A stretch of DNA of 64,000 nucleotides from an uncultured Gammaproteobacteria bacterium (GTDB taxonomy: Bacteria > Pseudomonadota > Gammaproteobacteria > GCA-001735895). The DNA lies in assembly GCA_964651385.1 (NCBI GenBank), contig CAZYYM010000001.1, positions 92,168-156,167 on the forward strand, given 5' to 3'. Below the pieces are notes generated by a model. It ran no database searches. It saw only the letters and a program-made list of their open reading frames with translations, and was not told the origin of the DNA. Below are positions 44,151 through 63,694 of the stretch, piece after piece; position 1 is the stretch's first letter; each line of letters opens with the position of its first letter. A program made the position numbers and the translations under genes.

Positions 44151-45596
44151 TTAACTATCAGTACCACCGACCGTAATTTCGTCTATTTTCAAGCTTGGCT
44201 GACCAACACCAACGGGTATGGTCTGACCTTCTTTACCGCATACGCCGACGCCCTGGTCGAGCGCCAGGTCGTTTCCTACCATCGATATCTTGCCCATCAC
44301 TTCGGGGCCTGAGCCGATTAAAGTCGCACCTTTAACCGGGGCACCGATTCGACCATTCTCGATCAAATAGGCCTCGGACAACGAAAATACGAAGCGACCA
44401 GAAGTAATGTCAACCTGGCCGCCGCCAAAATTGACTGCGAACAAACCTTTATCAACAGTACTGACTATTTCTGCGGGGTCGGACTCACCAGCAAGCATGT
44501 AGGTATTGGTCATGCGCGGCATCGGCAAATGGGCGAATGATTCACGTCGTCCATTCGAAGTCGACTGAGTACCCATCAGGCGCGCATTCATTTTATCCTG
44601 CATATACCCTTTGAGAATACCATTCTCGATCAGCACGGTATTTTGTGCCGCCACACCTTCGTCATCGATGCTCAATGATCCACGCCGGTCTTTAATGGTC
44701 CCATCATCCACCACCGTACAAAGAGGCGAAGCGACTTGATCGCCTATTCGATTGCTGAACGCCGAGGTCCCCTTGCGATTGAAATCGCCTTCCAGACCGT
44801 GCCCAACAGCTTCATGCAATAAAACGCCGGGCCAGCCTGGCCCAAGCACAACGGCCATCGAGCCGGCCGGTGTGGCAACTGACTCAAGATTATTGGCGGC
44901 CTGTCGAACCGCTTCACGGGCAAACCCATAGGGAAGATCAGAATCAAAAAAAACATCATAGGAGTGACGACCACCACCGCCTGAGCTGCCCTGTTCACGG
45001 CGTCCATTTTCATGCATTAATACCGTCACGTTAATACGCACCAGCGGACGAATATCGCTACCGAGCGTATTATCAGTCGCTGCTACCAGAATATGATCAA
45101 TGCCGCCTGTCAGTGAGATAATAACCTGTTCGATTCTGTCATCCAGAGAACGCGTATAGCTATCGAGTTTTTTCAGCAAATCGACCTTATCGTCCGCGCT
45201 GCGGCCGTCGACCGGATTTTTCTTCGTGTACAATGCCTTGCCGGTAGCGTTTTTTAATACCACCTGATGACTCCCCTCCTGACCCTGTCGGGCAATTGCA
45301 CGTGCATTGCTCACGGCCTGTGCTATAGCGTTGGATTGTAGATCGTCGCAGTAGGCAAACCCGGTTTTCTCTCCCGACATAGCACGAATACCAACGCCTT
45401 TTTCGATATTAAAAGATCCTTCTCGAATAATGCCATCATCCATTACCCAGGATTCCTGTTGCGTCGTCTGGAAATATAAATCGCCTGCATCAATATGCTG
45501 ACTTTGCAGTCCATCGAGGAAACTATTGAGTGTATCGATACTCAATCCGGTTGGTTGCAGTATGAGACTACTTACGGTGTCGAGTGTGGCGGGCAT
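44151..45596 (-). CDS. tldD: Metalloprotease TldD
   Basis: Colinear with E. coli TldD from MPATLDT... (start chosen by alignment). HEAVGHGLE zinc motif. Confidence 0.9.
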
Positions 45597-45621
45597 ATAT
45601 TTTCCTGATCGAGGTTGCGTG

Positions 45622-45978
45622 TTATTGCTCAAAGTCCGATCGTTTGCCAACGATAAGACGAATTTCATCGGCAGACTGACTACCGGATACCAAAGCTATA
45701 TAGTCTGCCGGAATACCCAGTGACACTAACCAGTCGCGTAATTCAGTCGCCCATATTTCACCGCTATCTTCACCTGGATAACGAATCAAGATACCGTAAT
45801 CGGCCGCTTTTTCCCAATAACTCACCGCAGCACGGATAGCGCCAAATTCCGCAATCACAGCGCCATTGCGCGGTCGCGACCATTCATCAGCACTGAGACT
45901 GAATATACGCAAACTGTTCGCCTGTGCCGGTAAATTCAGTAGCAATAATAATCCGACAGTTATCAACTTACTTTTCAT
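45622..45978 (-). CDS. Hypothetical small secreted protein
   Basis: 118 aa with a signal peptide. It is nested between tldD and yhdP and overlaps the yhdP stop by 11 bp. Confidence 0.45.
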
Positions 45979-48900
45979 TGTTTCCTGACCACTTTTTTGT
46001 TTCCTTAACGACCGGCTTCGGTTTATTGATCGGAATTATTACCGGATCATCCCAGCTACCGGTCATACTGTATTCAATTTCGACCGATTCATCGATTGTT
46101 GATTTAAACAGATTTTGTAGTAACAGCAAACCCCAACCGACAGGGCTTCCTGCTATGGCACCACCTATTAATGGTAAAGCCTGTCTAACTTTGGGTACTA
46201 CGTAGATTTTTTGATCGTAATCACGATCACGCATTCCGGTTTTTCCGACGATATTAATTTTAACTGAAGGCCCATCCATTCTTGTATTTTTAGTGTACAA
46301 GCTCTGTCCGTCGAGTAGCAGATCACCTTTAATCTTGTCGAATTCGAGGCCATCGAATAACACATCGGAAAAGTCGAAGAAAAGTCGGCGCGGTAATGCA
46401 CTGAGGCTTAACAGTCCGACAAAACGGCCCGTACCGGGTTCAACGTCTTTCAATATACCATCTTCCAGTATTAGATGTCCCTTACCACTTAGAATATCCC
46501 AATTAGGATTGACGATTTCCGCGGGCCAGTCGATCTCCCCGCTAAAATTGATACTACCATTGTGAATGGTATCGCCAAAACCGAGTGCTGCGAGGGTTTG
46601 ACCGAATTCATCACCTTTGATCGAAACTTCCATATGCGAATCATTTAATCTGGTACCAGCATTATAATGCCAGTACCCACTGGATTCGAATTGAACTTTG
46701 CCGTGTTTGAACTTTAAGGAATCGATTAAAAGCGATGTGTCGTCCAGGCTGGTATCAATTTCCAGGTTGGAAACTTCTCTATCGTCGTAAGCAAATAGCT
46801 TACTGCGAAATCGCATATTGAAAAAATCATTTGGCACCCAGCTTGTTACGCTATCGGGACCAGTCCTTCGTGCAACACGCATAAAGTCCATATCGAAAAT
46901 TATCGGATCTTGAATCGTATCCCGCTTCGGGAAAAAAAATTTCCCGCCGGCCACCGACGATTCGATGGTGCCCTCAAAACCCCGGTTCGACTGTTTGAGC
47001 AGAAAGTCCGCGTTCCTGATCGAACGACCGAACAACGCAACCTCGGTGATGTTCAAGTCAACTAATTGTAACAACGGCATCAGACTAGGCGAACCGGGCC
47101 GTCGCGCCGTCTCGGTTTGATGAAAAACGATCCATTCATCGAGCGGTACCCTGGGCAAATTGCCATATAAACGTATGCCACGCATCGGTTGTGACTTCAA
47201 CGAGGCGGCAAATGCCATATCCAGGTCGGCCAGTCGAAAGTCTCCATTGTCGGCCTTTTCCAACCGGCCCCTTGCCTTCACATGCGTACCAAAATTTACT
47301 TCAAAAACAAGTTGATTGTTCGCCAACAGCTCTAAGGTGCCCGTGATGCGTCGTTTTAGGTTGGGGCTCTTACTAAAGGGTTCCGGCAGGTACATCGCAG
47401 TACCTTCCAACCCACTGACTGCGCCGATGGTTAGTATTGGATCTTTACCCGTTTGAGGTGTATTGGGTATCGCCAGATTAACTTGCCAGATGCTTTTACC
47501 ATCGAGCCCCTGGGTCAGGCTTTCCGGTAGTAAATTGAGCATTTGTTGAGTATCGAGCAGGCCGCTACCTTTAATTAAAGTCTGTTGCTTTATTGGGTCA
47601 GTTGCGATATCCACCTCGACCGGATCATTAAAATAGTAAGCCTTTAATCCTTTTGCCGATATGCTGTTGTTGTCGATCACCACCTGACCATGGGCCTGAG
47701 ACAATTGCATGCCCCAGGCTGGGGCCTTAATCGCGGTATCCTCTAAATTAACAACAACCTTGACCTGCTCGCTTAATTGATCGTCTTCGAGGGGTATATT
47801 TAACCTAATATTGGCATTAATACGCCCGGCTGGTTGTTCAAAGTTTTTCGCAATTTCACGGAAATTTTCGCCTACTGGCGAATCCAGCCAGCGTGGTAAT
47901 GCGATATCGGTTGGCGCACCCGCATCGATATCGGCAACTACCGTGGTATTGGCAAATGTGGGTAAACGAACCTTGCCGCGAACATTTTCTATGTCGGCAT
48001 AACGGGCACTGTCGAGTTCAATATCGACGCCCATATTATGAAATAGAAGACGTCCCCTGCCCTGCTTGACCATTTCCCAGCCAGGATCAAACTTCACTTC
48101 AGCATTATCAATATCGAAGCGGGCGAGTAATTCCCCGGAATTGTTTTCATCGAGCTTTTCTATAGGCTGTAGACGACCGTGAAACATGATGGCACCGTTA
48201 CTGATATCAACTGCCCGAATACTCTCGTCGAGCCAGTCTAATGCCGGTTTCGGTAGCAATTTGACCGGTAGGTATTTTGACTTTTGACTACCAACACCGT
48301 CCTCGACACCCAGGCGAAGCGACATAAACGGTGCAGTATTCAAATCGCTTTCGATCCAGAAATGACCGGCAACCTTGATATCCTGATTGATTACCTCGAC
48401 GTCCTTTAGCGAAAGCACGACTTCGTTGCCAATTAGACCGGCGTCCGCTCTGGCCGCGAATTGATCGATTTCAAACGGTGCTCTAAACTGCTCACCAAAA
48501 TCGACCGATAATTGCTCAGCAGTGAATAGAATAGAGGCTTGCTGATTGGCATAGCTCAGTTCAGCATCAATATCATTGATGCCGGGTATCAGATCCACTG
48601 CCCGGTTTTTCAAGCCTTTTACTTTAGCCATCAAATTCAAGTCAGATGGCAACTCAACGGGAAATGTCATCCAGACATCTTCGACCCTGCCCTGTACGTT
48701 ACTTTCAATGATCGAGTCTCGAAATTTGTCCGGCAGGTAAATTTTAGCCAAATTCAGGTAATCGGATATTTCCAGATCTTTTACCCAGGCCTGTACCTGT
48801 TTTCCGTTAGTACCGCGAACCAGCCTCCATTGCGAATCGATATCGGGCAGCCGATGCTGATTAATAACCAGTTCTTCTACATGATTGGTTGACTGCCAGT

Positions 48901-49810
48901 TATCATTCAACTTATCGGCCTTAAAATTAATTGAAAACTGAAACGGTATCGCCGGATCATCAAGTTTCGCCTGATAGCTGGCTTTGTTAATTTTGAGATT
49001 ACCACTGACGGCGCTGACATGATGTTCCCGCAAATCAATCCAGGCCTCGCCCGCCATATCCACGCGACGAAGATTCTCTATGGGTATGTCCAGCAATCTG
49101 GCAATCGGATTGAGTTTGAGCTGTTCAGTCTGCAGATAAATGACGCCCTTATCGCCTTCAAGTAATGATTTGAGTTTCAGAGAGCCCCCAAGGGCTTCAG
49201 GCAGATTCGCCAATAACTGCACATGCATTACCTTGTCGTGATGTTGAATGCCGGCAAATATATTGTCGATCTGGTAGACGCGCTGTTTACTTTCATCCTC
49301 GATAATCAGGCGCTTGAGTTCCAGTTGGAGGAAGTGGGGAATGTTAACCAGAAAGGCTTCAATATCGTCAGCGGCCTTGCTACCGCTACCAGCTTTCAAA
49401 GCGATATCGTTTAACCACCATCGATTATCAGCATCTTTTCTGATAACCAGCTTTTCAATACTGCCGACCACTTCATGCACAACTGGAATTCCCAAAACCA
49501 GGCTATCCCAGAGATCAAACTGAATCGACAATAGATCGACCGCAATAGGACGCCTGCGATCCGGCAAAGTAACGACTGTTTTCTCCAGTTCGAGAATCGG
49601 GTTAACACCGCTCCAGTAGCATCGTATATCTCCGAAACCGATACCCGGCGCCAGTTCTTCTGAGACCCAGGTTTCAATGTCGGCTCTAAAAAATCCGACA
49701 TTTGCCAGCGTCAGCCGTAACCCGGCGACAATAATACCGCCGAGGATTAGACACCATATCAGGGTCCTTGCGATGTATTGAATCAGGTTGATCATATATC
49801 CCGAATGCAA
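45968..49810 (-). CDS. yhdP: AsmA-like envelope protein YhdP
   Basis: 1280 aa, N-terminal TM. The tldD-yhdP-rng-maf synteny matches E. coli. Confidence 0.85.
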   Translation of the reverse strand: MHSGYMINLIQYIARTLIWCLILGGIIVAGLRLTLANVGFFRADIETWVSEELAPGIGFGDIRCYWSGVNPILELEKTVVTLPDRRRPIAVDLLSIQFDLWDSLVLGIPVVHEVVGSIEKLVIRKDADNRWWLNDIALKAGSGSKAADDIEAFLVNIPHFLQLELKRLIIEDESKQRVYQIDNIFAGIQHHDKVMHVQLLANLPEALGGSLKLKSLLEGDKGVIYLQTEQLKLNPIARLLDIPIENLRRVDMAGEAWIDLREHHVSAVSGNLKINKASYQAKLDDPAIPFQFSINFKADKLNDNWQSTNHVEELVINQHRLPDIDSQWRLVRGTNGKQVQAWVKDLEISDYLNLAKIYLPDKFRDSIIESNVQGRVEDVWMTFPVELPSDLNLMAKVKGLKNRAVDLIPGINDIDAELSYANQQASILFTAEQLSVDFGEQFRAPFEIDQFAARADAGLIGNEVVLSLKDVEVINQDIKVAGHFWIESDLNTAPFMSLRLGVEDGVGSQKSKYLPVKLLPKPALDWLDESIRAVDISNGAIMFHGRLQPIEKLDENNSGELLARFDIDNAEVKFDPGWEMVKQGRGRLLFHNMGVDIELDSARYADIENVRGKVRLPTFANTTVVADIDAGAPTDIALPRWLDSPVGENFREIAKNFEQPAGRINANIRLNIPLEDDQLSEQVKVVVNLEDTAIKAPAWGMQLSQAHGQVVIDNNSISAKGLKAYYFNDPVEVDIATDPIKQQTLIKGSGLLDTQQMLNLLPESLTQGLDGKSIWQVNLAIPNTPQTGKDPILTIGAVSGLEGTAMYLPEPFSKSPNLKRRITGTLELLANNQLVFEVNFGTHVKARGRLEKADNGDFRLADLDMAFAASLKSQPMRGIRLYGNLPRVPLDEWIVFHQTETARRPGSPSLMPLLQLVDLNITEVALFGRSIRNADFLLKQSNRGFEGTIESSVAGGKFFFPKRDTIQDPIIFDMDFMRVARRTGPDSVTSWVPNDFFNMRFRSKLFAYDDREVSNLEIDTSLDDTSLLIDSLKFKHGKVQFESSGYWHYNAGTRLNDSHMEVSIKGDEFGQTLAALGFGDTIHNGSINFSGEIDWPAEIVNPNWDILSGKGHLILEDGILKDVEPGTGRFVGLLSLSALPRRLFFDFSDVLFDGLEFDKIKGDLLLDGQSLYTKNTRMDGPSVKINIVGKTGMRDRDYDQKIYVVPKVRQALPLIGGAIAGSPVGWGLLLLQNLFKSTIDESVEIEYSMTGSWDDPVIIPINKPKPVVKETKKWSGNNEK

Positions 49811-49820
49811 TAACTATTGG

Positions 49821-51299
49821 CTAAACCGGCACAACATCGTAAGTTTCCTGTGAAAAATGTGCCTCTACTTGAAGTTTGACCGGAATTTCTATAAAGGTTT
49901 CCAGCTCAGCCAGACTGGCGGCTTCTTCATCCAGTAATCGATCGATAACATCCTGATTAGCCATCACCAGTAACTGGCTGGCCTCCTCGTAAAGCCGCGC
50001 TTCCCGCAGGATTTCCCGAAATATTTCGTAACAAACTGTTTCAGTGGTTTTATGAGAGCCCCGACCATGACAGATACGACAGGTCTCACAGAGTACGTGT
50101 TCAAGACTCTCACGCGTACGTTTTCGTGTCATTTCGACTAACCCCAAAGGAGAGACGTCACATATCTGCGTTTTGGCGTGATCTTTATCGAGATATTTTT
50201 CCAGTGAATTCAAGACCTGGCGCTTATGTTCCTCACGCTCCATGTCAATATAGTCGATAATGATAATGCCGCCGAGGTTACGCAATCTGAGTTGCCGCGC
50301 AATCGCCTGCGACGCCTCGTGGTTGGTTTTAAATATGGTTTCTTCCAGGTTTTGATGCCCGACAAAAGCACCGGTATTAATGTCTATCGTGGTCATGGCT
50401 TCGGTCTGGTCAATGATCAGATACCCGCCTGACTTTAACCCCACTTGTCGCCCCAGCGCTTTCTGGATTTCATCGTCGATATTATAAAGGTCAAACAAGG
50501 GACGTTCGCCGGGGTAGTGCGATAATCGCGCAGGCAGATCGGGAATATAGCGCTGTTTGAAACTCGCCATCTTCTGATAGGTTTCGCGCGAATCGACCTG
50601 GACGACGCTGGTTTCCTTGCCAACCATGTCACGCAAAGTTCGAATCGATAAAGGCAAATCTTCGTGGATCATGCTGCCGGGCTTAACTGATTTTGCATAT
50701 TCGGATATTGAATCCCAAAGTTTGCAGAGAAAATTGATATCCCGAAGCAATTCGTCTTCGTCGACACCTTCCGCCGCAGTGCGCACGATGCAGCCACCGT
50801 TACGATTTTCGATCAGGCATTCGGATAACAGACCACGTAATCGCTCACGCTCTTCCTCATCTTCGATTTTCACCGAAATTCCTATCATCGAGGAATTCGG
50901 CATATACACCAGGTACCTTGAAGGTACCGAAATACTGGTTGTTAGCCGAGCGCCTTTGGTGCCGATAGGGTCCTTGACCACCTGCACCAACAACGTTTGC
51001 CCTTCGCGTAACAATTCATTAATGGCAAGGCGTGGCTTACCATTTTGGGAGTCGTCGCTTTCCTCACCGGTATGAATATCGGAAACATGCAAAAAACCAG
51101 CCTTTTCAAGACCTATGTCGATGAACGCGGCTTCCATGCCAGGTAATACTCGATTGACCTTACCTTTATATATATTACCGACAATGCCACGACTACTCTG
51201 ACGCTCGATGCAGACTTCCTGCAAAGCGCCATTTTCGACGATAGCAACCCTTGTTTCCTGCGGGGTGATATTGACCAGAATTTCTTCGTTTATACTCAT
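49821..51299 (-). CDS. rng: Ribonuclease G
   Basis: 492 aa. S1 domain and the RNase E/G catalytic core. Confidence 0.9.
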   Translation of the reverse strand: MSINEEILVNITPQETRVAIVENGALQEVCIERQSSRGIVGNIYKGKVNRVLPGMEAAFIDIGLEKAGFLHVSDIHTGEESDDSQNGKPRLAINELLREGQTLLVQVVKDPIGTKGARLTTSISVPSRYLVYMPNSSMIGISVKIEDEEERERLRGLLSECLIENRNGGCIVRTAAEGVDEDELLRDINFLCKLWDSISEYAKSVKPGSMIHEDLPLSIRTLRDMVGKETSVVQVDSRETYQKMASFKQRYIPDLPARLSHYPGERPLFDLYNIDDEIQKALGRQVGLKSGGYLIIDQTEAMTTIDINTGAFVGHQNLEETIFKTNHEASQAIARQLRLRNLGGIIIIDYIDMEREEHKRQVLNSLEKYLDKDHAKTQICDVSPLGLVEMTRKRTRESLEHVLCETCRICHGRGSHKTTETVCYEIFREILREARLYEEASQLLVMANQDVIDRLLDEEAASLAELETFIEIPVKLQVEAHFSQETYDVVPV

Positions 51300-51304
51300 A
51301 CTTC

Positions 51305-51877
51305 CTATACCGATATTCCGGACTCTTTTAAAAGCTCGGCCGTTTCATAAATGGGCAGCCCCATGACCGCTGAATAACTACCTTGGATGTACTTGATAAA
51401 AATCGCAGCTTTACCCTGTATTGCGTAAGCACCTGCCTTATCCATCGGTTCGTTGCAGGCACAATATTCTTCTATCTCAAGATCCGATAACGGTCTGAAA
51501 CAAACCCGGTTGACAGACAATCTGCATTCGATTCTATTGTTTATGGCCAAAGCCACCGCACTCAGTACCTGGTGTTCACGTCCCGATAATTTTGAAAGAA
51601 TATTTCGACAATGCGAGTGATCAACCGGTTTCCCGATAATATTATCATCTAACGTAACGATAGTATCGGCGCCGAGTACTGCGGAAGAAAACCATCCCGC
51701 AGCTAATGCTTCGACACCGGCTTGCGCCTTGCTTTTAGCCAGGCGTATAACGTAGTTTCGAGCGGATTCAGCAGCATGCAGCGACTCGTCTATATTGACA
51801 GGCATTACCTCAAAATGGAGATTAATTTGTCGTAAAAGTTCCGCTCTTCTAGGTGAGCCTGATGCCAGATAAATCAT
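51305..51877 (-). CDS. maf: Maf-like nucleoside triphosphate pyrophosphatase
   Basis: The start MIYLASGSPRR was chosen by alignment to YhdE/Maf. Confidence 0.85.
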   Translation of the reverse strand: MIYLASGSPRRAELLRQINLHFEVMPVNIDESLHAAESARNYVIRLAKSKAQAGVEALAAGWFSSAVLGADTIVTLDDNIIGKPVDHSHCRNILSKLSGREHQVLSAVALAINNRIECRLSVNRVCFRPLSDLEIEEYCACNEPMDKAGAYAIQGKAAIFIKYIQGSYSAVMGLPIYETAELLKESGISV

Positions 51878-51931
51878 ATCCTTATGATAGCTGAATACTA
51901 TTAACTGTGACTTAACTGTCACTGCATTTAA

Positions 51932-54753: not shown

Positions 54754-55767
54754 CTAAATCTGCCAGTTTAAACCGCTAAACTGACTAATCAGTGATTTTA
54801 AATGTATCCAGTTTTGATCAGGAAAATCGGCGTCTTGCTGCCCTTTGCTAATGCGGTCTAATGTAGCACAGCTTTGCAATAAACGCTCAATTTGAACCCC
54901 GTTCAATCGTGACAACGCATCATGATATAGATGTCGTTTATTTTTCCAGATTCTTAATGCCTGCCAAACACGGTCGCTCAGGGTTCCGTTCGACTGCGCA
55001 AGTTTGAGACTGTTCAGCTGTTCCAGTGACGAATGTAGTGCCCGGCAAATCTGCGTGGTAACAAAACCCTCATGTTCCAGGCTATCCAGGATATTCAGTG
55101 CACGTGCGGCTTTTCCGGCAAGACAGGCATCGACCAGGATATAATGATTGTAGCGAGCTGACTGGGAAACAGACTCTTCAATCATTTTAAAGCTAACAGC
55201 CTGTCCTTCGGCACAGCGAATAGAAAGCTTTTCCAGTTCCTGGTCGGCAGCCAGTAAATTGCCTTCAGTACGTTCGGCCAGAAAAGCAGCGGACTGTCGA
55301 TCGATTATCAGACCTTTTTGACTCGCCCGCTGAATAATCCAGCCGGATAATTCGTTGGCATATACCGGTTTAAATTCGATGACCTCCGCCGCCTGTTGCA
55401 AACGTTTACACCAGCTTGAATTTTTAGTTGCCCGGTCGAGCCCCGGGACAACAAAGACAAAGACAGTATCATCGGAACGATTTTGACAGATCGACTGAAT
55501 CGCATTGCTGCCCTTTTGCCCCGGTTTGCCATTGACAATATGGATGATTCGGCACTTGCTGCTTGCAAACAGGGATAACATATCGCCTTCTTCGAGCAAT
55601 GCAATCCAGTCAAACCCGGTATCGGCTACCATTGTTTGAATGTCTTCAAAACCCGCATCGCGTAAGGTCTGCCGAAATCGGTCGAGCCAGTCACGAATCA
55701 TTAAGGGTTCGCTACTCGCAAGCAAGTAAATCGGCGACGGGGGGTGATTTGACGGGATGCCCTGCAT
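54754..55767 (-). CDS. holA: DNA polymerase III subunit delta
   Basis: 337 aa, in the lptE/holA/nadD neighbourhood. Confidence 0.8.
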   Translation of the reverse strand: MQGIPSNHPPSPIYLLASSEPLMIRDWLDRFRQTLRDAGFEDIQTMVADTGFDWIALLEEGDMLSLFASSKCRIIHIVNGKPGQKGSNAIQSICQNRSDDTVFVFVVPGLDRATKNSSWCKRLQQAAEVIEFKPVYANELSGWIIQRASQKGLIIDRQSAAFLAERTEGNLLAADQELEKLSIRCAEGQAVSFKMIEESVSQSARYNHYILVDACLAGKAARALNILDSLEHEGFVTTQICRALHSSLEQLNSLKLAQSNGTLSDRVWQALRIWKNKRHLYHDALSRLNGVQIERLLQSCATLDRISKGQQDADFPDQNWIHLKSLISQFSGLNWQI

Positions 55768-55829: not shown

Positions 55830-55863
55830 CAAAAAACCCTCGAACAACCTTGTCCGAGGGTTT
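55830..55863 (-). terminator. Rho-independent terminator (bidirectional hairpin; 6-U tract on the minus strand)
   Basis: Stem 55836-55841 and 55854-55859 (CCCTCG and CGAGGG) with a 12-nt loop, flanked by AAAAAA and TTTT. Confidence 0.6.
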
Positions 55864-55975
55864 TAAAGATTACCTGCTTTATTTCATCCTGTGGCTTCCC
55901 GCTAGGCATCCATGCCTATGATGTTGTGAGAATTTCCTTATACACATCTCCGTGGTCTGGTTCCTTTCAAACACG
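55830..55975 (-). ncRNA. Candidate Csr/Rsm-family (CsrB/RsmY/RsmZ-like) small RNA
   Basis: On the minus strand, TATAAT (plus coordinates 55986-55981) is followed by about 145 nt carrying at least 6 GGA motifs, including a hairpin AGGCA-UGGA-UGCCU. Transcription ends in the terminator CCCUCG-12 nt-CGAGGG-UUUUUU. A GacA-box-like palindrome lies about 70 bp upstream. Confidence 0.35.
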
Positions 55976-56052
55976 CTGTTATTATAGCGCCTGACTGTCA
56001 ATTACCTATAGGCAGAACAAGTAAACTTATGTAGGCGCAAAGCTAGATTTTT

Positions 56053-56070
56053 TGTAGGATTTGACCTACA
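56053..56070. promoter_or_regulatory. TGTAGG-N6-CCTACA palindrome resembling the GacA/UvrY upstream activating sequence
   Basis: Perfect 6-N6-6 palindrome. The consensus GacA box is TGTAAG-N6-CTTACA. It lies upstream (minus-strand sense) of the candidate sRNA promoter. Confidence 0.3.
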
Positions 56071-56107: not shown

Positions 56108-57319
56108 TTATATATCCCGTAAACCATCTGAGGGTTCAATTCCGGAAGCCCGTAAACCACCCAGTATGGCCGAAAAAATAGCCGTAACAACCGTTAGAGC
56201 CAATCCCCAGAAGAAATGTTCCGTCAACAGATAGCATAAATTACCTTCAAGGTTCAATCGCGGCGCCAGGAACCTGTTAATCAAGTGTTCAAATCCGAGA
56301 TAAACGAGAACAGCCAGTAGCCACCCCAGAAGGGCTGTATAGCAGGACTGCAGTACTGGAAACAGTACGATGACACTACTTTTGAATCCGATTAATCGCA
56401 AGACACTCAAATCTTTACCCTTGCGATCGACGTTCGCCCACAGGCTTGCGCCAAGCGAGAATGCAAAACCGACCGCACCGACACAGGCTATTATCCAGAA
56501 TATAACCGAGAGGTTATGATCGATTGATTGCACGGTTACGATTTCTCCTACATTGGCCTTGACCCGAACACCCTGTTTCTCCAGCTCGGTAGCGATGTTT
56601 TCGACATCATAAATTGACCGGGCATAGAGCCGAAATGAAGGAAAAGTCCGTGCTGTATCATTTTCAGCATCGCCTTTCCAGCCAAGATCCGGCACCTCAC
56701 GACCATCTTTGAACTGTTCGGTAGCAATCAATAAATCGAGATAGACAAACGCCACATTCCGGCTGGTAACAGCCGCATGGGCTATATCTATGACCGTTAC
56801 AGGCAAATGTACCCTTTCACGTTTGCCCTGAAATTGACGAGCCAGGCTGGCATCAATCTTATCACCCGTCGCTACCTTTAATTTATTAGCCGCGCTCTGG
56901 CTTAAAATTATCTGGTTATAGTTTTGTGGCATCTGTTTTATGCCAGCCAACAGGGGATCGCCTCTTGCGGTTGCCAGCAACTCCGATGAGACTATTCGTG
57001 GCGCCGAATCACTTTTCAGTTGTATTGTCGCGGCAAGTGCTCGCGTTTTAGGTATAATAAAGTCAATTTCATTGCGGTTTCGGAGTTCCGCTATCCACTG
57101 TTCTGAAAATCGGCCACTTCCGACAGGCCGAATTTCGCGATTTGACGGATTTTCTACCAGCCCATCCACCATCGTACTGACAATACCAAATTTCAAACCG
57201 AACAGGATCATCATCGGCGCCAGCACTGACGCCAACGCAAAAATAAAACAGCCCGACATGCGCCATTCGTGACTGTAGTCTCGAAAACTGAGGCGAATTA
57301 TATTACTAAACTGGCTCAT
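56108..57319 (-). CDS. FtsX/MacB-type ABC transporter permease
   Basis: 403 aa. TM1, a large periplasmic loop and 3 C-terminal TM segments. Confidence 0.75.
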   Translation of the reverse strand: MSQFSNIIRLSFRDYSHEWRMSGCFIFALASVLAPMMILFGLKFGIVSTMVDGLVENPSNREIRPVGSGRFSEQWIAELRNRNEIDFIIPKTRALAATIQLKSDSAPRIVSSELLATARGDPLLAGIKQMPQNYNQIILSQSAANKLKVATGDKIDASLARQFQGKRERVHLPVTVIDIAHAAVTSRNVAFVYLDLLIATEQFKDGREVPDLGWKGDAENDTARTFPSFRLYARSIYDVENIATELEKQGVRVKANVGEIVTVQSIDHNLSVIFWIIACVGAVGFAFSLGASLWANVDRKGKDLSVLRLIGFKSSVIVLFPVLQSCYTALLGWLLAVLVYLGFEHLINRFLAPRLNLEGNLCYLLTEHFFWGLALTVVTAIFSAILGGLRASGIEPSDGLRDI

Positions 57320-58045
57320 CTAATCGCGAAAAATTGACTGATAAATTTGTCCGTCCTCTATCACCTCGGCCTCCTGACGAAGGACACGTAAATCCATTTT
57401 ATAGACATGCGCCCAGTCATGGCTGGCAGTAATCAACGTAATTTTTAATCCTTTGATGAGTTCCATGACTACTGCCATAATTTTCCGGGTCGTTATCGGA
57501 TCGAGTGAGGCAGTGGGTTCATCAGCCAACAAAATCGAAGGCCTGTGAGACAGTGCTCGTGCAAAAGCAGCGCGCTGCCTTTCACCGGTAGATAACAACC
57601 CGGGTAACTTGTCCAGCTGGCGATGAATACCCAGCACACGGGCAATTGAATTAACTGAATCGTCGTCAGCCTGTTTGAGCAGGCGTCGAGGCAATTCTAT
57701 ATTTTCCCGTACGGTCAAATAGGGTAAAAGGCCACCGGATTGCAGTACATATCCAATATGTTGTTTTCGAATCTGCGATAATCCGCTTTGTTTTTTCCGG
57801 CGCCAGAGTTTATCGATTTGCTGCGACTTACTACCCACAGGCTCAAGATTGAACATATCGCTTTGGTCCGGATGGAGAATTAAGGCCAGTATATCCAGCA
57901 GCGTACTCTTGCCACAGCCACTATTCCCGATCAGGGCTATATTCTCCTCGGCGTTTATTTTGATGCTTGGCACCCGAAGGCGAAATCCGACACCATCGAC
58001 CAGCCGTTCCTTGACGACGTTTTTCAGAGTATACACAACTGACAC
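57320..58045 (-). CDS. ABC transporter ATP-binding protein
   Basis: Walker A GNSGCGKST, signature LSTGERQR, Walker B ILLADEP. Confidence 0.85.
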   Translation of the reverse strand: MSVVYTLKNVVKERLVDGVGFRLRVPSIKINAEENIALIGNSGCGKSTLLDILALILHPDQSDMFNLEPVGSKSQQIDKLWRRKKQSGLSQIRKQHIGYVLQSGGLLPYLTVRENIELPRRLLKQADDDSVNSIARVLGIHRQLDKLPGLLSTGERQRAAFARALSHRPSILLADEPTASLDPITTRKIMAVVMELIKGLKITLITASHDWAHVYKMDLRVLRQEAEVIEDGQIYQSIFRD

Positions 58046-58070
58046 GAGCTAGTGCTCTTTCAAGCTGGCA

Positions 58071-60026
58071 CTAGGGCAACAGGTCGAGCGCAACCGGGAA
58101 TACCGAATTGCCATTAACCGGACCACCACCGGGCGTGACCCACAGATCGGTATGGTCATGCAAAGCCTGGTAGTAACTGATTTTACTATCGAGACGTTGC
58201 ATAAACTCAATTTGGGTTTTGGCAGACCACTCTTCCCAGCTTTCCAGCGTCAGATTCATGACTTCACCGGTATAGGGCAGGTCTTCGATGTATTCACGCA
58301 TATAGCCCATTTCAGCCAGGTTGGTACCCGCGCCCGAAGTGCTGGCGCCGACGGATGACGGATCACGACTCACGGTGGCTGCCAGACTTTTCAGATCATT
58401 GATAAAATTTTTCGGGCTGAGCACACCTTCTTCGGCAAGCTCAAGCACCTGTTGCATGACATCTTTCAAATCACTGAGCTGATCACGGGTGAGCAAGACC
58501 CGAACATCGACCGACGAGCGTTCCGGATTGAGAAAATCACGGTCAACCATCCAGGCATTGAATACTTTAGGCAAAGGCTTACCGGATTCCTTTTGTATAT
58601 AGCGCATGCGTAAGGCGTGTCCCAGCTTCGAAACGCGGTCCTGCAATTGTGCCAACTGAGTCTGTTCTTCGTCATTTTCAACATCGGCTAAGGGTATTGG
58701 TGGTACACCATTCGTAGTCGCCAGCACCTGCTGAGTAATCTGATTTGCCAGCGTTTCCAACACCGTGCCGAACTCATCGACCTCACCGAGGCTAACGCCG
58801 TAGTAAAAATCACCAATACCGGGGAAGTATGAGAGCTCCTTATAGAGGTTTTCGGCCTTTTCATGGTTCGCCGCAATGGCCGGCGTACGCAAATGCAATA
58901 CCCAGATCGAGACGCCTTTGTCATAAGCTAACTGTCGCAAAGCTTTGGCACTTAAACGCGTGGCACCAAGCGAATCATGGCTCTCGCGCGGACCGGCATC
59001 GGTAATCAAAACGACATAGCGGGCGTCGAAGTCCCCCCAGTCCGAATCCTCAATGGCCGACTTTATCCCGGCATAGGCATCTTCGCGGAAATCCCGACTG
59101 GATATTTCCGAAGCACTCAGTGCGTTAACACCTTCTAAAAACTGATCCACATCTGTTCCCTGCTCGAGACTGACATAACGTCGCGTCAGGTATTCAAGTT
59201 CCGGTACCAGTGAAATATTATCGCGGTAAGCGGTTAGACCGAAGCTGACCTGATTGGTCAGGCCCTGCCGGTCGATGGCGGAATATACCTTGCGGACCGC
59301 CTCTCGCGTTCGGTCGATATAAGGTCCCATTGACGCAGTCGAGTCGATAACAAAATGTATGGCGCTGCGGTAGCTACGGTTTTTTTGAGAAGCTGAATGA
59401 GACCCGACTGATTTATCGTTTTCATCGTCAAGTGGAACACTGGCGACCTCCAGTAATCGAGCCTGTTCATTACCGAGATAAACGTCTTCATGCTGTTTGA
59501 TAGGCACCAGGTAAAAATTATCGCGAATTTCCAGATGTGCTTCGGGCTGCAGCGCAATAACCGGGCTATTTTCCAGTTTGTCACCGTTTACCGCAGCCTG
59601 GTAAAGAGTCTGGTAGGCCGCTTTGTCGAAGTCGTCAACCAGTTGTTTAAGCGCTTTTTTGCTGTTGAACAACATGACCCGCTGGATATCCTGCGGGTCT
59701 TTAAATGAAACAGTGAGCGCCTGATTCCACACAATCGCCTGCTTCTCCGGCACCCAACCCGCCGTTTTACCGAAACTGTCGTAACCGACACGTAACCAGC
59801 CATTCTGTTTTTCGTAAACGTATAAAACACTGAACGGTATAATTTCCTCGGAAACGCCCCCAACATCGGTGGATTGAAAAATTTGCGCATCAGGAATACT
59901 CAGTACACGTTGGTAGAGCGATTTTTTACCTTCCATCAGCAATGGTTTCTGATTCGAAGCCTGAATATTAAAGGATAGCAACAGGATAAAGCTGAGTAGC
60001 ACTCTGGTTATAATTTTTTCCAACAT
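58071..60026 (-). CDS. Secreted von Willebrand factor A (vWA) domain protein
   Basis: Signal peptide. MIDAS motif VIDSTASM (DxSxS) at the start of a vWA fold, followed by a roughly 250-aa C-terminal region. Confidence 0.65.
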   Translation of the reverse strand: MLEKIITRVLLSFILLLSFNIQASNQKPLLMEGKKSLYQRVLSIPDAQIFQSTDVGGVSEEIIPFSVLYVYEKQNGWLRVGYDSFGKTAGWVPEKQAIVWNQALTVSFKDPQDIQRVMLFNSKKALKQLVDDFDKAAYQTLYQAAVNGDKLENSPVIALQPEAHLEIRDNFYLVPIKQHEDVYLGNEQARLLEVASVPLDDENDKSVGSHSASQKNRSYRSAIHFVIDSTASMGPYIDRTREAVRKVYSAIDRQGLTNQVSFGLTAYRDNISLVPELEYLTRRYVSLEQGTDVDQFLEGVNALSASEISSRDFREDAYAGIKSAIEDSDWGDFDARYVVLITDAGPRESHDSLGATRLSAKALRQLAYDKGVSIWVLHLRTPAIAANHEKAENLYKELSYFPGIGDFYYGVSLGEVDEFGTVLETLANQITQQVLATTNGVPPIPLADVENDEEQTQLAQLQDRVSKLGHALRMRYIQKESGKPLPKVFNAWMVDRDFLNPERSSVDVRVLLTRDQLSDLKDVMQQVLELAEEGVLSPKNFINDLKSLAATVSRDPSSVGASTSGAGTNLAEMGYMREYIEDLPYTGEVMNLTLESWEEWSAKTQIEFMQRLDSKISYYQALHDHTDLWVTPGGGPVNGNSVFPVALDLLP

Positions 60027-60053
60027 TTCACCTGTTTATTCGATATCGATAAT

Positions 60054-60644
60054 TTACTGTACAACCAGTAGTAGCTGTCGTGCGTAGGGATTTCCCGTTT
60101 CAGATTCCTGCTGCGCCCATTGCTGAAGCGCCTGAATACGCCCGCTAACATCCGGATGACCCTGTTCTGCCGCCTTTTGATACCACTTGTAGGATTGCAG
60201 GGCATCAGCGTGATCGAGTAAGCTGTTTTCCGGCTGAAACAAATTCGGGTCTGACATTTCAGCCATTTTAACCATCGATTCAGCATAACCCTCACGGGCA
60301 CCGAAAAAATACAGCAGATGCGAATCGGCCAGGCTGCCTTCATTGTAATATTCATTGGCTTTTGCAAAAACCTGGTCGAGTGGATAAGGTTGCCCCTGGA
60401 CTCGCAGTTGCGCAATGAACTGACGAGCGCGCATACCCGGTGGAACAAGCAGGCTACGTTGAATGGCACCGGACAATTCATCGTTTTTATCGTCGTTATC
60501 AGCAGGCGCAGTACCGACAACGGTGGTATTACCCCGTTCAGTGGCCAAAACGATATAGGCAATCAGACCAATCACAATAAGAATGATCCAGAAAAGCGGA
60601 TTTCGCTTCCGTTTTGATGAATCTGCTTCGATCATATCAGGCAT
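60054..60644 (-). CDS. Membrane-anchored protein with a Sel1/TPR-like helical C-terminus
   Basis: N-terminal TM (LFWIILIVIGLIAYIVL). The C-terminus YKWYQKAAEQGHPDV is Sel1-like. Preferred over the overlapping alternative-frame ORF 60008..60562. Confidence 0.5.
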   Translation of the reverse strand: MPDMIEADSSKRKRNPLFWIILIVIGLIAYIVLATERGNTTVVGTAPADNDDKNDELSGAIQRSLLVPPGMRARQFIAQLRVQGQPYPLDQVFAKANEYYNEGSLADSHLLYFFGAREGYAESMVKMAEMSDPNLFQPENSLLDHADALQSYKWYQKAAEQGHPDVSGRIQALQQWAQQESETGNPYARQLLLVVQ

Positions 60645-60743
60645 GAATATTTCGCTTGTTGTAGGTTTTCAATGTGATCTGCAGTAATTATAAACACTTG
60701 CAGGCACCGGGTAAATTTCATCAACAATAGAATAGAAATCAGA

Positions 60744-63694
<2,951 letters not shown>

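What the first reader, a model, noticed from the sequence alone, without database searches (positions are those of the whole stretch)
56108..60644. Four-gene insertion (TM Sel1-like protein, secreted vWA protein, MacB/FtsX-type ABC ATPase and permease) splitting the conserved leuS-lptE-holA block
In E. coli and Pseudomonas, lptE is followed directly by holA. Here about 4.5 kb encoding four co-oriented, tightly packed genes is inserted. They are a membrane-anchored Sel1-like protein, a 651-aa secreted vWA protein with an intact MIDAS motif, and an ABC ATPase plus a single FtsX-fold permease of the mechanotransmission (MacB/LolCDE-like) type. A vWA protein teamed with a type VII ABC transporter suggests an ATP-driven periplasmic or outer-membrane assembly or extraction system of unknown substrate. 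It does not match LolDF: the Walker A is atypical and the neighbours are different.
Basis: partly seen in the sequence, partly recalled or inferred. Interest (0 to 1): 0.6.

Follow-up and report, generated by a model that had tools for sequence, protein, structure and literature searches.

The report
Kinase-less TagTS/PpkA-type envelope module
Four tightly packed genes between lptE and holA encode a membrane ATP-driven machine plus two periplasmic partners. They are a stripped-down, kinase-free relative of the outer-membrane-damage sensor that triggers type VI secretion in Pseudomonas, and a whole lineage of uncultured marine bacteria keeps them as strictly as a tRNA synthetase.

Summary
Four co-oriented minus-strand genes (Sel1-like membrane protein, secreted 651-aa vWA protein, ABC ATPase, FtsX-type permease) lie between lptE and holA, which overlap in E. 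coli.

This is not a recent insertion. All 47 related loci that reach both flanks show the same arrangement, out of 109 related loci in total. The vWA, ABC and FtsX proteins are as conserved as LeuS (median 74-77% vs 78% identity), against HolA 59% and LptE 36%.

The vWA protein matches the entire periplasmic part of the Pseudomonas T6SS kinase PpkA (35% over 649 aa). The ATPase matches TagT (42%) and the permease matches TagS (38% over 400 aa, 254 bits; E. coli LolC/E give 27-34 bits). Gene order matches ppkA-tagT-tagS.

The kinase, TagR, TagQ and T6SS genes are absent. So are the srfABC and SUMF1 genes that accompany a widespread second version of the module. A more distant group keeps the same four genes elsewhere in the genome, so they form a self-contained unit.

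The most likely mechanism is inferred, not shown. A type VII ABC transporter transmits ATP-driven movement to the vWA partner inside the envelope, in outer-membrane surveillance or maintenance.

In passing: the ftsX-holA gap holds an unannotated Csr/Rsm-type sRNA with a GacA box.

The parts
60054..60644 (-). Membrane-anchored Sel1-like protein (196 aa). It has a roughly 16-aa cytoplasmic tail, one TM helix, a low-complexity linker and a conserved periplasmic domain of about 110 aa with Sel1-type repeats.
   Evidence: - ORF.
- Pfam Sel1: 19.6 bits in this protein; 10 of 18 family members match Sel1, best E 1e-6.
- The C-terminal domain aligns with the TM-TPR proteins encoded just upstream of the vWA gene in srfABC-linked clusters. 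A116, D132, P133, W154 and Y155 are invariant. Those proteins carry an extra cytoplasmic N-domain of about 180 aa that is missing here.
- A homologue lies upstream of the vWA gene in every locus with room except one, L141.
58071..60026 (-). Secreted three-domain vWA protein (651 aa): signal peptide, beta-rich N-domain (about 28-215), vWA domain with a MIDAS-like site (about 220-440) and an alpha/beta C-domain (about 455-651). It is a stand-alone homologue of the whole periplasmic part of PpkA.
   Evidence: - ORF.
- 35% identity over 649 aa (373 bits) to residues 404-1027 of P. protegens PpkA; the alignment is colinear end to end.
- Hits at E = 1.1e-126 (P0137) and 8.9e-104 (P0163) to representatives that carry N-terminal Pkinase domains. 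P0163's close relatives are named Pseudomonas PpkA.
- AlphaFold2 model: pLDDT 85.7, pTM 0.71. Foldseek finds only vWA / integrin I-domain folds, best E 7e-9.
- The N- and C-domains match no Pfam family.
- D228, S232, E315, D316 and D343 are invariant or nearly invariant across 94 diverse homologues.
57320..58045 (-). ABC ATPase of the TagT type (241 aa), apparently catalytically competent.
   Evidence: - Pfam ABC_tran: 92.8 bits.
- 42% identity and 161 bits to TagT, against 33% and 96 bits to E. coli LolD.
- Below every NCBIfam equivalog cut-off; LolD scores 124 against 308.
- Motifs kept in 124 homologues: Walker A GxSGCGKST, Walker B [ILV]3ADEP, and an H-loop [AV][ST]H[DAE] found in 113 of 124. 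The signature is LSxGERQR with a non-Gly third residue, as in TagT's LSVGQRQR.
56108..57319 (-). FtsX/MacB-type permease of the TagS type (403 aa). It has four hydrophobic segments and a hydrophilic stretch of about 220 aa between the first two, read as the periplasmic domain.
   Evidence: - Pfam FtsX: 26.2 bits, residues 276-396.
- 38% identity over 400 aa and 254 bits to P. protegens TagS, against 27 bits (LolC) and 34 bits (LolE) for E. coli.
- Best solved structures: YtrF 25.9, MacB 15.1 and LolE 10.4 bits.
- Topology was read directly from the sequence.
60687..60715 (-). Sigma-70-like promoter match (TTTACC-17-TATAAT) in the lptE-sel1 gap. It may be the module's own promoter.
   Evidence: Consensus scan. 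The evidence is weak: 16 sites in the region against 9.6 +/- 3.6 in shuffles.
55831..56070 (-). Neighbouring element, not part of the protein module. It is a Csr/Rsm-type small RNA gene in the ftsX-holA gap, with these parts:
- GacA/UvrY-box palindrome TGTAGGTCAAATCCTACA at 56053-56070
- TATAAT at 55981-55986
- an RNA of about 145 nt (about 55831-55974) with GGA motifs in hairpin loops
- an intrinsic terminator at 55831-55860
   Evidence: - Sequence.
- 75-87% nucleotide identity in more than 40 loci.
- Alignment A6 and its consensus fold: 12 of 20 pairs show compensatory changes.
- The box is present in 38 of 43 loci at a fixed distance.
- 52 of the 56 boxes in 1.16 Mb of related loci lie within 400 nt downstream of ftsX; there are none in the distant group.
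- No Rfam match at gathering threshold or at E <= 1, except a sub-threshold His_leader hit on the terminator.

Best explanation
The four genes form one self-contained envelope machine. It is a minimal, kinase-less member of the family that includes TagT-TagS-PpkA (the outer-membrane-damage sensor of the Pseudomonas H1 type VI secretion system) and the vWA-ABC-FtsX cassette linked to srfABC.

**Shown**
- Gene-for-gene homology and identical gene order to ppkA-tagT-tagS.
- Intact ATPase motifs.
- A secreted vWA protein with a conserved metal-site motif.
- A single-pass Sel1-like protein with almost no cytoplasmic part.
- Obligate co-occurrence of the four genes in two separate lineages.
- Conservation equal to LeuS.

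**Inferred**
- The ATPase and the FtsX-type permease form a type VII ABC complex. Like FtsEX, LolCDE, MacB and YbbAP, it would not carry a substrate across the inner membrane. Instead it converts cytoplasmic ATP hydrolysis into movement of its large periplasmic domain.
- That movement acts on the vWA protein, which takes the place of the periplasmic domain of PpkA and probably docks through its MIDAS face.
- The membrane-tethered Sel1 repeat domain on its flexible linker serves as an adaptor.
- No component other than the ATPase has a cytoplasmic domain. The output is therefore most likely work done within the envelope rather than a phosphorylation signal.
- The known relatives respond to outer-membrane or LPS perturbation (lptD, bamA or tolB depletion, polymyxin, chelators). 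This module sits in the leuS-lptE-holA housekeeping cluster. The most likely role is constitutive monitoring or maintenance of outer-membrane or LPS integrity.
For: **Homology and order**
- vWA protein against PpkA residues 404-1027: 35% over 649 aa. ABC against TagT: 42%. FtsX against TagS: 38% over 400 aa.
- The P. protegens locus reads pppA-ppkA-tagT-tagS-tagR-tagQ.
- Kinase-fused family members P0137 and P0163; P0163's close relatives are named PpkA.

**Not Lol**
-.

**Family signatures shared with TagT**
- Cys in Walker A and a non-Gly third residue in the signature motif; catalytic motifs conserved in 124 homologues.

**Self-contained unit**
- 28 loci at 51-55% identity keep sel1-vwa-abc-ftsx but lie away from lptE and holA, with varied flanks.
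- No locus with room lacks the ABC or FtsX gene.

**Fixed and strongly constrained**
- 109 loci. Median identities: LeuS 78, vWA 76, ABC 77, FtsX 74, HolA 59, LptE 36.

**Sel1 protein as a conserved fourth component**
- It is homologous to the TM-TPR protein of srf-linked clusters but lacks their cytoplasmic domain.

**vWA fold and metal site**
-.

**Function of the relatives**
- TagQRST-PpkA senses outer-membrane perturbation, including lptD, bamA and tolB knock-down. The signal itself is unknown (PMC7817224; PMC13584744).

**Type VII ABC mechanotransmission**
- Established knowledge (titles and abstracts: PMC12646458, PMC7668044, PMC5985334).
Against: - No physical interaction, ATPase activity or phenotype has been measured. 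The organisms are uncultured.
- The docking of the vWA protein on the permease was not modelled.
- The genes that confer sensing and output in the studied relatives (TagR, TagQ, kinase) are all missing. Function may therefore have diverged.
- Adjacency to lptE is a weak functional argument. The distant group has the same module elsewhere, and the leuS-lptE-holA cluster mixes unrelated housekeeping genes.
- Partners encoded elsewhere in the genome cannot be excluded from a 64-kb window.
Confidence: 0.5

Rival explanations
1. It is still a signalling sensor, like TagTS-PpkA. The cytoplasmic output partner (a kinase, SrfA-like pseudokinase or regulator) is encoded elsewhere in the genome and contacted through the transmembrane segments or the ATPase, as BceAB contacts BceS.
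For: - Every studied or annotated relative couples the core to a cytoplasmic domain: a kinase fused to the vWA module, an AAA_22 fusion in P0124, or TM-TPR proteins with a cytoplasmic domain of about 180 aa next to srfABC.
- The adjacent Gac-type sRNA shows that regulatory elements sit at this locus.
Against: - No kinase, phosphatase, FHA, Srf or regulator gene lies in or next to the module in any of about 137 loci.
- The Sel1 protein has specifically lost the cytoplasmic domain.
- Conservation at the level of a tRNA synthetase is unusual for an accessory sensor.
Confidence: 0.2
2. It is a Lol-like (LolDF-type) extractor. It pulls a lipid-anchored protein or a lipid out of the inner membrane and hands it to the vWA protein as carrier. 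A 2026 preprint proposes this for the srfABC-linked cassette.
For: - The architecture matches LolC/E/F: a four-TM FtsX fold with a periplasmic domain of about 220 aa.
- The best NCBIfam hits of the ATPase include LolD.
- bioRxiv 10.64898/2026.09.18.752743 calls the srf-linked permease LolF-like on the basis of HHpred.
- YbbAP-TesA shows that type VII systems can extract hydrophobic compounds (abstract of PMC12646458).
Against: - The permease scores 23.6 bits against a 362 cut-off on lolCE, and 27-34 bits against E. coli LolC/E, compared with 254 bits to TagS.
- The ATPase scores 96 bits to LolD against 161 to TagT.
- The constant partner has a vWA/MIDAS fold, not a LolA-like fold.
- No lipoprotein cargo gene is present.
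- The preprint itself notes that canonical LolCDE co-exists with the cassette in those organisms.
Confidence: 0.12
3. The vWA protein is cargo rather than partner. It would be a secreted adhesin that the ABC system helps to export or mount on the cell surface.
For: - The vWA protein has a Sec signal peptide.
- Its closest solved folds include the pilus-tip adhesin SpaC and integrin I-domains.
Against: - The homologous module in PpkA is tethered to the inner membrane and works in the periplasm (PMC13584744).
- The module contains no membrane-fusion protein, TolC-like component or other outer-membrane component.
- 76% median identity across a deep lineage is far higher than expected for a surface-exposed adhesin.
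Confidence: 0.08
4. It is a recently acquired mobile or defence island that happened to land between lptE and holA.
For: - The module interrupts a gene pair that overlaps in E. coli.
- Homologous cassettes do travel on plasmids: 114 of the 126 matching plasmid records are Klebsiella plasmids.
Against: - The position is the same in all 47 loci that reach both flanks, and in 79 upstream and 57 downstream flanks overall, down to 56% LeuS identity.
- There is no GC anomaly and there are no mobility genes.
- There is no specific PADLOC hit.
Confidence: 0.02

Closest known systems
TagT-TagS-PpkA (with TagQ and TagR): the threonine-phosphorylation-pathway sensor of the Pseudomonas H1 type VI secretion system
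   Same: - Three of the four proteins are full-length homologues. The vWA protein matches the whole periplasmic part of PpkA (35%), the ATPase matches TagT (42%) and the permease matches TagS (38%).
- Gene order is the same: vWA, then ABC, then FtsX.
- The ATPase sequence signatures are shared.
   Different: - There is no Ser/Thr kinase domain. A signal peptide replaces the kinase, linker and TM segment.
- TagR (FGE-sulfatase/SUMF1) and the TagQ lipoprotein are absent.
- There are no pppA, fha or tss genes nearby.
- An extra Sel1-like membrane protein is present.
- The location is housekeeping, and conservation is clade-wide at LeuS level.
srfABC-associated cassette: TM-TPR protein, vWA, ABC, FtsX, SUMF1 and small proteins. 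Found in P. aeruginosa strains, Magnetospirillum, Oceanisphaera, Haematospirillum and Klebsiella plasmids.
   Same: - All four genes have homologues in the same order.
- This includes the membrane-anchored Sel1/TPR protein directly upstream of a kinase-less, signal-peptide-bearing vWA protein (36-40% identity).
   Different: - There is no srfA, srfB or srfC, no SUMF1/TagR-like enzyme and no trailing small proteins.
- The Sel1 protein lacks the cytoplasmic N-domain of about 180 aa.
- The location is chromosomal and housekeeping rather than island- or plasmid-borne.
LolCDE / LolDF lipoprotein extractor
   Same: - Type VII ABC architecture: a four-TM FtsX-fold permease of about 400 aa with a large periplasmic domain.
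- A LolD-like ATPase class.
   Different: - Sequence similarity is marginal (27-34 bits to LolC/E; model scores far below cut-offs).
- The partner is a vWA protein, not LolA.
FtsEX-EnvC and YbbAP-TesA (type VII ABC complexes that act on a periplasmic partner protein)
   Same: The proposed logic is the same. An ATPase-driven FtsX-fold permease works on a dedicated periplasmic partner encoded alongside it, rather than pumping a solute (abstracts).
   Different: - There is no detectable specific sequence relationship. YbbA gives 104 bits for the ATPase only.
- The partner has a vWA fold rather than a coiled-coil LytM factor or a lipase.
- The partner interaction here is inferred, not shown.

Membership tests
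TagTS-PpkA sensor of the T6SS threonine phosphorylation pathway | ABC ATPase homologous to TagT | tested here: met
   42% identity over 218 aa and 161 bits to P. protegens TagT, against 96 bits to E. coli LolD. It shares the Walker A GxSGCGKST and the LSxG[EQ]RQR signature.
TagTS-PpkA sensor of the T6SS threonine phosphorylation pathway | FtsX-type permease homologous to TagS | tested here: met
   38% identity over 400 aa and 254 bits. The reciprocal search (TagS as query) gives 263 bits. LolC/E give 27-34 bits.
TagTS-PpkA sensor of the T6SS threonine phosphorylation pathway | Periplasmic vWA-containing module of the PpkA type, encoded immediately upstream of the ABC genes | tested here: met
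   35% identity over 649 aa to PpkA residues 404-1027, colinear alignment and the same gene order.
TagTS-PpkA sensor of the T6SS threonine phosphorylation pathway | Cytoplasmic Ser/Thr kinase domain fused to the periplasmic module through a TM segment | tested here: not met
   The window protein has no Pkinase hit and begins with a signal peptide. Kinase-bearing members such as P0137 and P0163 are about 1000 aa.
TagTS-PpkA sensor of the T6SS threonine phosphorylation pathway | TagR (FGE-sulfatase/SUMF1 periplasmic protein) and TagQ (outer-membrane lipoprotein) encoded alongside | tested here: not met
   tblastn with TagR, TagQ and two SUMF1 homologues found nothing in the 80 metagenome loci, and none is present in the window ORFs. 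The rest of the genome could not be tested.
TagTS-PpkA sensor of the T6SS threonine phosphorylation pathway | Linkage to T6SS genes (pppA, fha, tss) | tested here: not met
   None was found among the window ORFs scanned, which are housekeeping genes such as YhdP, TldD, RND efflux and GcvP, or by tblastn with 20 query proteins in the 80 metagenome loci. Absence from the whole genome could not be tested.
srfABC-linked vWA-ABC-FtsX cassette | Membrane-anchored TPR/Sel1 protein directly upstream of a kinase-less vWA protein, followed by ABC and FtsX genes | tested here: met
   The order is the same. The C-terminal Sel1 domain is homologous, with five invariant columns in 18 sequences, but the cytoplasmic N-domain is absent here.
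srfABC-linked vWA-ABC-FtsX cassette | Adjacent srfA-srfB-srfC and a downstream SUMF1 enzyme | tested here: not met
   There are no SrfB, SrfC or SUMF1 tblastn hits in the 80 metagenome loci. The window flanks are lptE and holA.
LolCDE / LolDF | Permease and ATPase reach the curated LolC/E and LolD equivalog models | tested here: not met
   lolCE TIGR02212 scores 23.6 bits against a 362.45 cut-off. LolD TIGR02211 scores 124.1 against 307.75. BLASTP to E. coli gives LolC 27, LolE 34 and LolD 96 bits.
LolCDE / LolDF | It is the only Lol-type system of the genome and works with LolA/LolB | not testable with these tools
   Only 64 kb of the genome is available. No lolA, lolB or lolCDE was found among the window ORFs scanned.
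Type VII (MacB/FtsX-fold) ABC transporters | FtsX C-terminal TM domain, a large extracytoplasmic domain between TM1 and TM2, and a separate or fused ABC ATPase with intact motifs | tested here: met
   Pfam FtsX scores 26.2 against a 25.5 cut-off at residues 276-396. A hydrophilic stretch of about 220 aa between the first two hydrophobic segments was read from the sequence. ATPase motifs are conserved. The Porter/Sabre fold itself was not modelled.
MacAB-TolC-type tripartite efflux pump | Membrane-fusion (HlyD-family) adaptor encoded with the pump | tested here: not met
   None of the four proteins has an HlyD/MFP hit. The MacB model scores 90 bits against a 966 cut-off.
vWA / MIDAS proteins | vWA Rossmann-like fold with a DxSxS...T...D metal site | tested here: met
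   The AlphaFold2 model has pLDDT 85.7. Foldseek matches integrin I-domains and SpaC at E 7e-9, with TM about 0.7 normalised to I-domain targets. The motif is DxTxS (D228, T230, S232) plus D343, with E315/D316 conserved. PpkA itself has DTSVS. Metal binding was not tested.
BatA-E / MoxR-vWA systems | MoxR AAA+ ATPase and DUF58 protein encoded with vWA and TPR proteins | tested here: not met
   There is no AAA+ MoxR or DUF58 gene in the window block.

The most novel reading that the evidence does not exclude
The four-gene unit is the ancestral, output-free core of the TagTS-PpkA and Srf-linked systems. It would be a fifth functional class of type VII ABC mechanotransmission machine, with a MIDAS-bearing vWA protein as its periplasmic effector. 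It would perform a near-essential outer-membrane or LPS maintenance task, and T6SS and Srf systems later co-opted it as a damage sensor by adding a kinase or other cytoplasmic domains. If so, working out what this minimal machine binds would reveal the long-unknown signal that TagQRST-PpkA senses.
Probability: 0.25. Interest if true: 0.75.

Novelty: new variant of a known kind. Interest (0 to 1): 0.55.

Why it matters
The signal detected by the TagQRST-PpkA pathway is still unknown. That pathway lets Pseudomonas aim its type VI secretion system at sites of outer-membrane damage. The roles of its ABC transporter and of the PpkA periplasmic domain are also unclear.

This locus shows that the ABC pair and the PpkA-type periplasmic module exist on their own. 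They occur without a kinase, TagR, TagQ or a T6SS, as a self-contained operon. One marine gammaproteobacterial lineage has kept it next to the LPS-assembly gene lptE and conserved it as strongly as a tRNA synthetase.

That argues the core has a function of its own in the envelope, and that the T6SS and SrfABC systems build on it. The kinase-less form also appears to be the commoner one: only 2 of the 10 longer or fused family members scanned carried a kinase domain.

The result also corrects the view, from a 2026 preprint, that the related srf-linked transporter is 'Lol-like'. It points to cultivable organisms for experiments, such as P. putida, P. aeruginosa strains and Magnetospirillum.

Tried and rejected
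- **First structure prediction.** The alignment was shallow (28 sequences at 76-88% identity) and the model failed at pLDDT 44. It was replaced by a 94-sequence alignment.
- **Sequence search of the PDB with the vWA family profile.** It gave only a chance hit to a beta-TrCP D domain.
- **PADLOC.** Only generic ABC/AAA hits, so no defence system.
- **Exact look-ups of the window vWA protein.** No contig on record.
- **tblastn of Pseudomonas PpkA against plasmids.** No full-length kinase form was found, only kinase-less ones.
- **Metagenome scan with the 94-sequence alignment.** It was redone with 12 sequences.
- **Lol hypothesis.** Rejected on scores.
- **Recent-island hypothesis.** Rejected on synteny and composition.
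- **Flanks of the distant group.** TraB/GumN, an AI-2E transporter, a SPOR protein and a P-type ATPase gave no common functional clue.
- **Rfam.** No family at gathering threshold. The only permissive hit in the gap was a sub-threshold His_leader match on the terminator, rejected as chance.
- **Literature.** Searches for the vWA + FtsX + Sel1 + lptE/holA combination found nothing relevant.

Full report
**1. The observation**

The window has four co-oriented minus-strand ORFs at the stated coordinates:
- 60054-60644, 196 aa
- 58071-60026, 651 aa
- 57320-58045, 241 aa
- 56108-57319, 403 aa

They are separated by 27, 25 and 0 nt. Upstream lie leuS (61226-63679) and lptE (60744-61229). Downstream lie holA (54754-55767), proA, nadD, rsfS and rlmH.

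Pfam gives ABC_tran at 92.8 bits for the ATPase and FtsX at 26.2 bits (cut-off 25.5) for the permease. The vWA protein scores 22.6 bits (cut-off 23.8) and the first protein scores 19.6 bits on Sel1 (cut-off 30.7). Both weak calls hold at family level. Nine of 12 diverse homologues match VWA, and 10 of 18 homologues of the first protein match Sel1, best E 1e-6.

In E. coli the order is leuS-lptE-holA-nadD, with lptE and holA overlapping by one base. The block therefore does split a pair that is adjacent elsewhere. GC content inside the block (0.46-0.51) does not differ from the flanks.

**2. It is not a recent insertion**

A scan of one genome per species found 62 loci, all uncultured marine Gammaproteobacteria, including the Olavius algarvensis Gamma 3 symbiont. 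A metagenome scan added 80 more.

One group of 109 loci has vWA identity of 64-85% to the window. Every such locus that reaches a flank shows leuS/lptE upstream (79 loci) or holA downstream (57 loci), and 47 show both. This holds down to 56% LeuS identity.

Median identities to the window are LeuS 78, vWA 76, ABC 77, FtsX 74, ProA 70, RsfS 64, RlmH 60, HolA 59, Sel1 51, NadD 46 and LptE 36. Three envelope proteins are thus conserved like an aminoacyl-tRNA synthetase, and about 18 points better than HolA in the same loci.

**3. It is a self-contained four-gene unit**

A second group of 28 loci has 51-55% vWA identity. It keeps sel1-vwa-abc-ftsx in the same order, but none has leuS, lptE or holA nearby. 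Their flanks vary: TraB/GumN, an AI-2E transporter, a SPOR protein and a P-type ATPase.

Across all loci, none with enough sequence lacks the ABC or FtsX gene. Only one lacks a detectable Sel1 gene.

**4. What it is related to**

An exhaustive profile-free search with the vWA protein found 1294 clusters at 50% identity, 469 of them at E <= 1e-30. Most are 630-700 aa and align over residues 25-651.

Some members of about 1000 aa carry the whole module at their C-terminus. P0137 and P0163 have N-terminal Pkinase domains, and P0124 has an AAA_22 domain. The close relatives of P0163 are Pseudomonas proteins that several sources name PpkA.

The P. protegens locus reads fha-tssJ-tssK-tssL-tssM-tagF-pppA-ppkA, followed by an ABC ATPase (238 aa), an FtsX permease (400 aa), an FGE-sulfatase protein and a Gly-zipper lipoprotein. 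That is tagT, tagS, tagR and tagQ.

Pairwise BLASTP gives the following:

| Window protein | Pseudomonas relative | Identity | Bits | E. coli Lol comparison |
|---|---|---|---|---|
| vWA | PpkA residues 404-1027 | 35% over 649 aa | 373 | not applicable |
| ABC ATPase | TagT | 42% over 218 aa | 161 | LolD 96 bits |
| FtsX permease | TagS | 38% over 400 aa | 254 | LolC 27, LolE 34 bits |

The curated LolC/E and LolD models are missed by a wide margin (23.6 against 362; 124 against 308). The best solved structures for the permease are YtrF at 25.9, MacB at 15.1 and LolE at 10.4 bits.

The ATPase shares two peculiarities with TagT: a Cys in Walker A (GxSGCGKST) and a non-Gly third residue in the signature motif (LSxG[EQ]RQR). 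Walker B and the H-loop are conserved in 124 homologues, so ATP hydrolysis is presumably retained.

The alignment of the vWA protein with PpkA is colinear from the first residues after the signal peptide to the C-terminal LP. It includes the metal-site motif, VIDSTASM here and VVDTSVSM in PpkA, and the ITDAG/VSDAG aspartate.

**5. A second, widespread kinase-less version**

A profile search shows kinase-less stand-alone homologues at 36-40% identity in cultured bacteria. These include P. aeruginosa, P. putida, P. chlororaphis, Magnetospirillum gryphiswaldense ('PpkA-related protein'), Novispirillum, Azospirillum, Orrella and Oceanisphaera. They also occur on 126 plasmids, 114 of them from Klebsiella.

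Five contexts were inspected. All read srfA-srfB-srfC, a TM TPR protein of about 340-370 aa, vWA, ABC, FtsX, an FGE-sulfatase/SUMF1 protein and two small proteins, often followed by a VWA_2 or trypsin-like protein.

The literature has noticed this neighbourhood twice. In 2013 it was described as srfABC next to 'tagQRST/ppkA' in host-associated Deltaproteobacteria that mostly lack a T6SS (PMC3608642). In 2026 it was described as a 'Lol-like' ABC module with vWA and SUMF1 genes flanking srfABC (bioRxiv 10.64898/2026.09.18.752743).

The periplasmic domain of the window's Sel1-like protein (about 110 aa) aligns with the C-terminal domain of those TM-TPR proteins. The window protein lacks their cytoplasmic N-domain of about 180 aa and keeps only about 16 residues before the TM helix.

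The window module is therefore the minimal common core. No kinase, TagR/SUMF1, TagQ, SrfB or SrfC homologue was found in the window block or, by tblastn, in the 80 metagenome loci. No T6SS gene was found among the window ORFs scanned.

**6. Structure of the vWA protein**

With a diverse 94-sequence alignment, AlphaFold2 gives pLDDT 85.7 and pTM 0.71. The model has four parts:
- a signal helix
- a beta-rich N-domain (about 28-215)
- a vWA domain (about 220-440)
- an alpha/beta C-domain (about 455-651)

Foldseek against the PDB finds only vWA folds: integrin alpha-I and beta-I domains, the SpaC pilus adhesin and PTMP1, best E 7e-9. The N- and C-domains match no Pfam family and no solved structure by sequence. 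D228, S232, E315, D316 and D343 are invariant or nearly so across the 94 sequences.

**7. How it most likely works**

Shown:
- homology and shared gene order with ppkA-tagT-tagS
- intact ATPase motifs
- a secreted vWA partner with a conserved MIDAS-like site
- a tethered Sel1 domain
- obligate four-gene linkage
- very strong purifying selection
- no cytoplasmic domain apart from the ATPase

From established knowledge, FtsX/MacB-fold (type VII) ABC systems such as FtsEX-EnvC, LolCDE-LolA, MacAB-TolC and YbbAP-TesA use ATP hydrolysis to move a periplasmic domain that works on a partner. They do not carry a substrate across the inner membrane (abstracts).

TagQRST-PpkA activates the T6SS after outer-membrane perturbation. 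The triggers include knock-down of lptD, bamA or tolB, polymyxin, chelators and a periplasmic lipase. The response depends on tagT, and the signal is unknown (PMC7817224; PMC13584744).

Inferred: the ATPase-permease pair drives or reads conformational changes in the vWA protein, which occupies the place of PpkA's periplasmic domain. The Sel1 protein acts as a tethered adaptor. Because nothing connects to the cytoplasm, the output is work within the envelope, plausibly monitoring or maintenance of outer-membrane or LPS integrity. Adjacency to lptE fits this reading but is weak evidence, since the distant group carries the module elsewhere.

I put about 0.9 on the family assignment and about 0.5 on the mechanism as stated.

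Rivals:
- a sensor with an unlinked cytoplasmic partner (0.2)
- a Lol-like extractor (0.12)
- export of the vWA protein as an adhesin (0.08)
- a recent mobile island (0.02)

**8. Novelty**

The components belong to a known kind: the TagTS-PpkA sensor core, which is also the srf-linked cassette. The four-gene form is different. It has no kinase, TagR, TagQ or Srf genes, and it is fixed between lptE and holA in a deep lineage at LeuS-level conservation. My literature searches found no description of it. I class it as a new variant of a known kind.

**9. Noticed in passing: an sRNA in the ftsX-holA gap**

The 340-nt gap between the permease gene and holA is conserved at the nucleotide level (75-87%) in more than 40 loci. 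It contains:
- a perfect GacA/UvrY-type palindrome, TGTAGGTCAAATCCTACA, at 56053-56070
- a TATAAT at 55981-55986
- an RNA of about 145 nt with GGA motifs placed in hairpin loops
- a strong intrinsic terminator at 55831-55860

Twelve of the 20 predicted pairs show compensatory changes. The palindrome is present at a fixed distance in 38 of 43 loci. Of the 56 such palindromes in 1.16 Mb of related loci, 52 lie within 400 nt downstream of the permease gene, and the distant group has none. Rfam has no match.

By anatomy this is a Csr/Rsm-family sponge RNA under Gac control. It does not travel with the module in the distant group, so I treat it as a neighbour rather than a part. The Gac/Rsm pathway is reported to regulate transcription of T6SS genes in Pseudomonas, upstream of TagQRST-PpkA post-translational control (PMC7817224). 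That makes the adjacency worth a look.

Noticed in passing
window 55831-56070, minus strand (gap between the FtsX-type gene and holA): An unannotated Csr/Rsm-type small RNA gene. It has a GacA/UvrY-box palindrome TGTAGGTCAAATCCTACA (56053-56070), a TATAAT (55981-55986), an RNA of about 145 nt with GGA motifs in hairpin loops, and an intrinsic terminator (55831-55860). It is conserved in more than 40 related loci, with compensatory changes in 12 of 20 pairs. The box is present in 38 of 43 loci at a fixed distance. There is no Rfam match.
   Followed up: yes
P0124, P0185, P0166 (hits; domains): Other architectures occur in the PpkA-periplasmic-module family. One has an N-terminal AAA_22 ATPase instead of a kinase (P0124, 1041 aa). 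One carries ABC_tran on the same polypeptide (P0185, 890 aa), which may be a gene-call run-through. One has two vWA domains with a TssR_VWA-like hit (P0166). P0220 and P0254 (about 1000 aa) have N-terminal regions with no Pfam match.
   Followed up: partly
L063 (Klebsiella pneumoniae plasmid NZ_CP029739.1) and 113 other Klebsiella plasmids: The srfABC + TM-TPR + vWA + ABC + FtsX + SUMF1 cassette is carried on many large Klebsiella plasmids, here IncFIB/IncU, next to IS66-family elements and an IrmA-family gene.
   Followed up: partly
L065 (Candidatus Thiodictyon syntrophicum plasmid pTs485), locus 8896-12996: A vWA-ABC pair (38% identity to PpkA) with no annotated permease downstream and no Sel1 gene upstream. 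It may be a decaying copy, or a gap in the PLSDB gene table.
   Followed up: no
window 19418-24201, plus strand: Four consecutive ORFs (407, 289, 470 and 223 aa) with no NCBIfam match at E <= 1e-5. They lie just upstream of argE, rimB and rimK-like genes.
   Followed up: no
window 45968-51922, minus strand: The E. coli-like block maf-rng-yhdP-tldD follows rlmH here: YhdP is at 45968-49810 (627 bits) and TldD at 44151-45668. Two outer-membrane lipid or LPS transport genes, lptE and yhdP, therefore lie within 15 kb of the module. This looks like inherited synteny rather than a specific link.
   Followed up: no
L147 (E. coli NZ_CP062811.1), locus 1308-5144: In E. coli the genes just upstream of leuS include two Sel1/TPR-family genes, ybeQ and ybeT, with DnaJ-like partners. 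No relationship to the window's Sel1-like protein was tested, and it is probably a coincidence.
   Followed up: no
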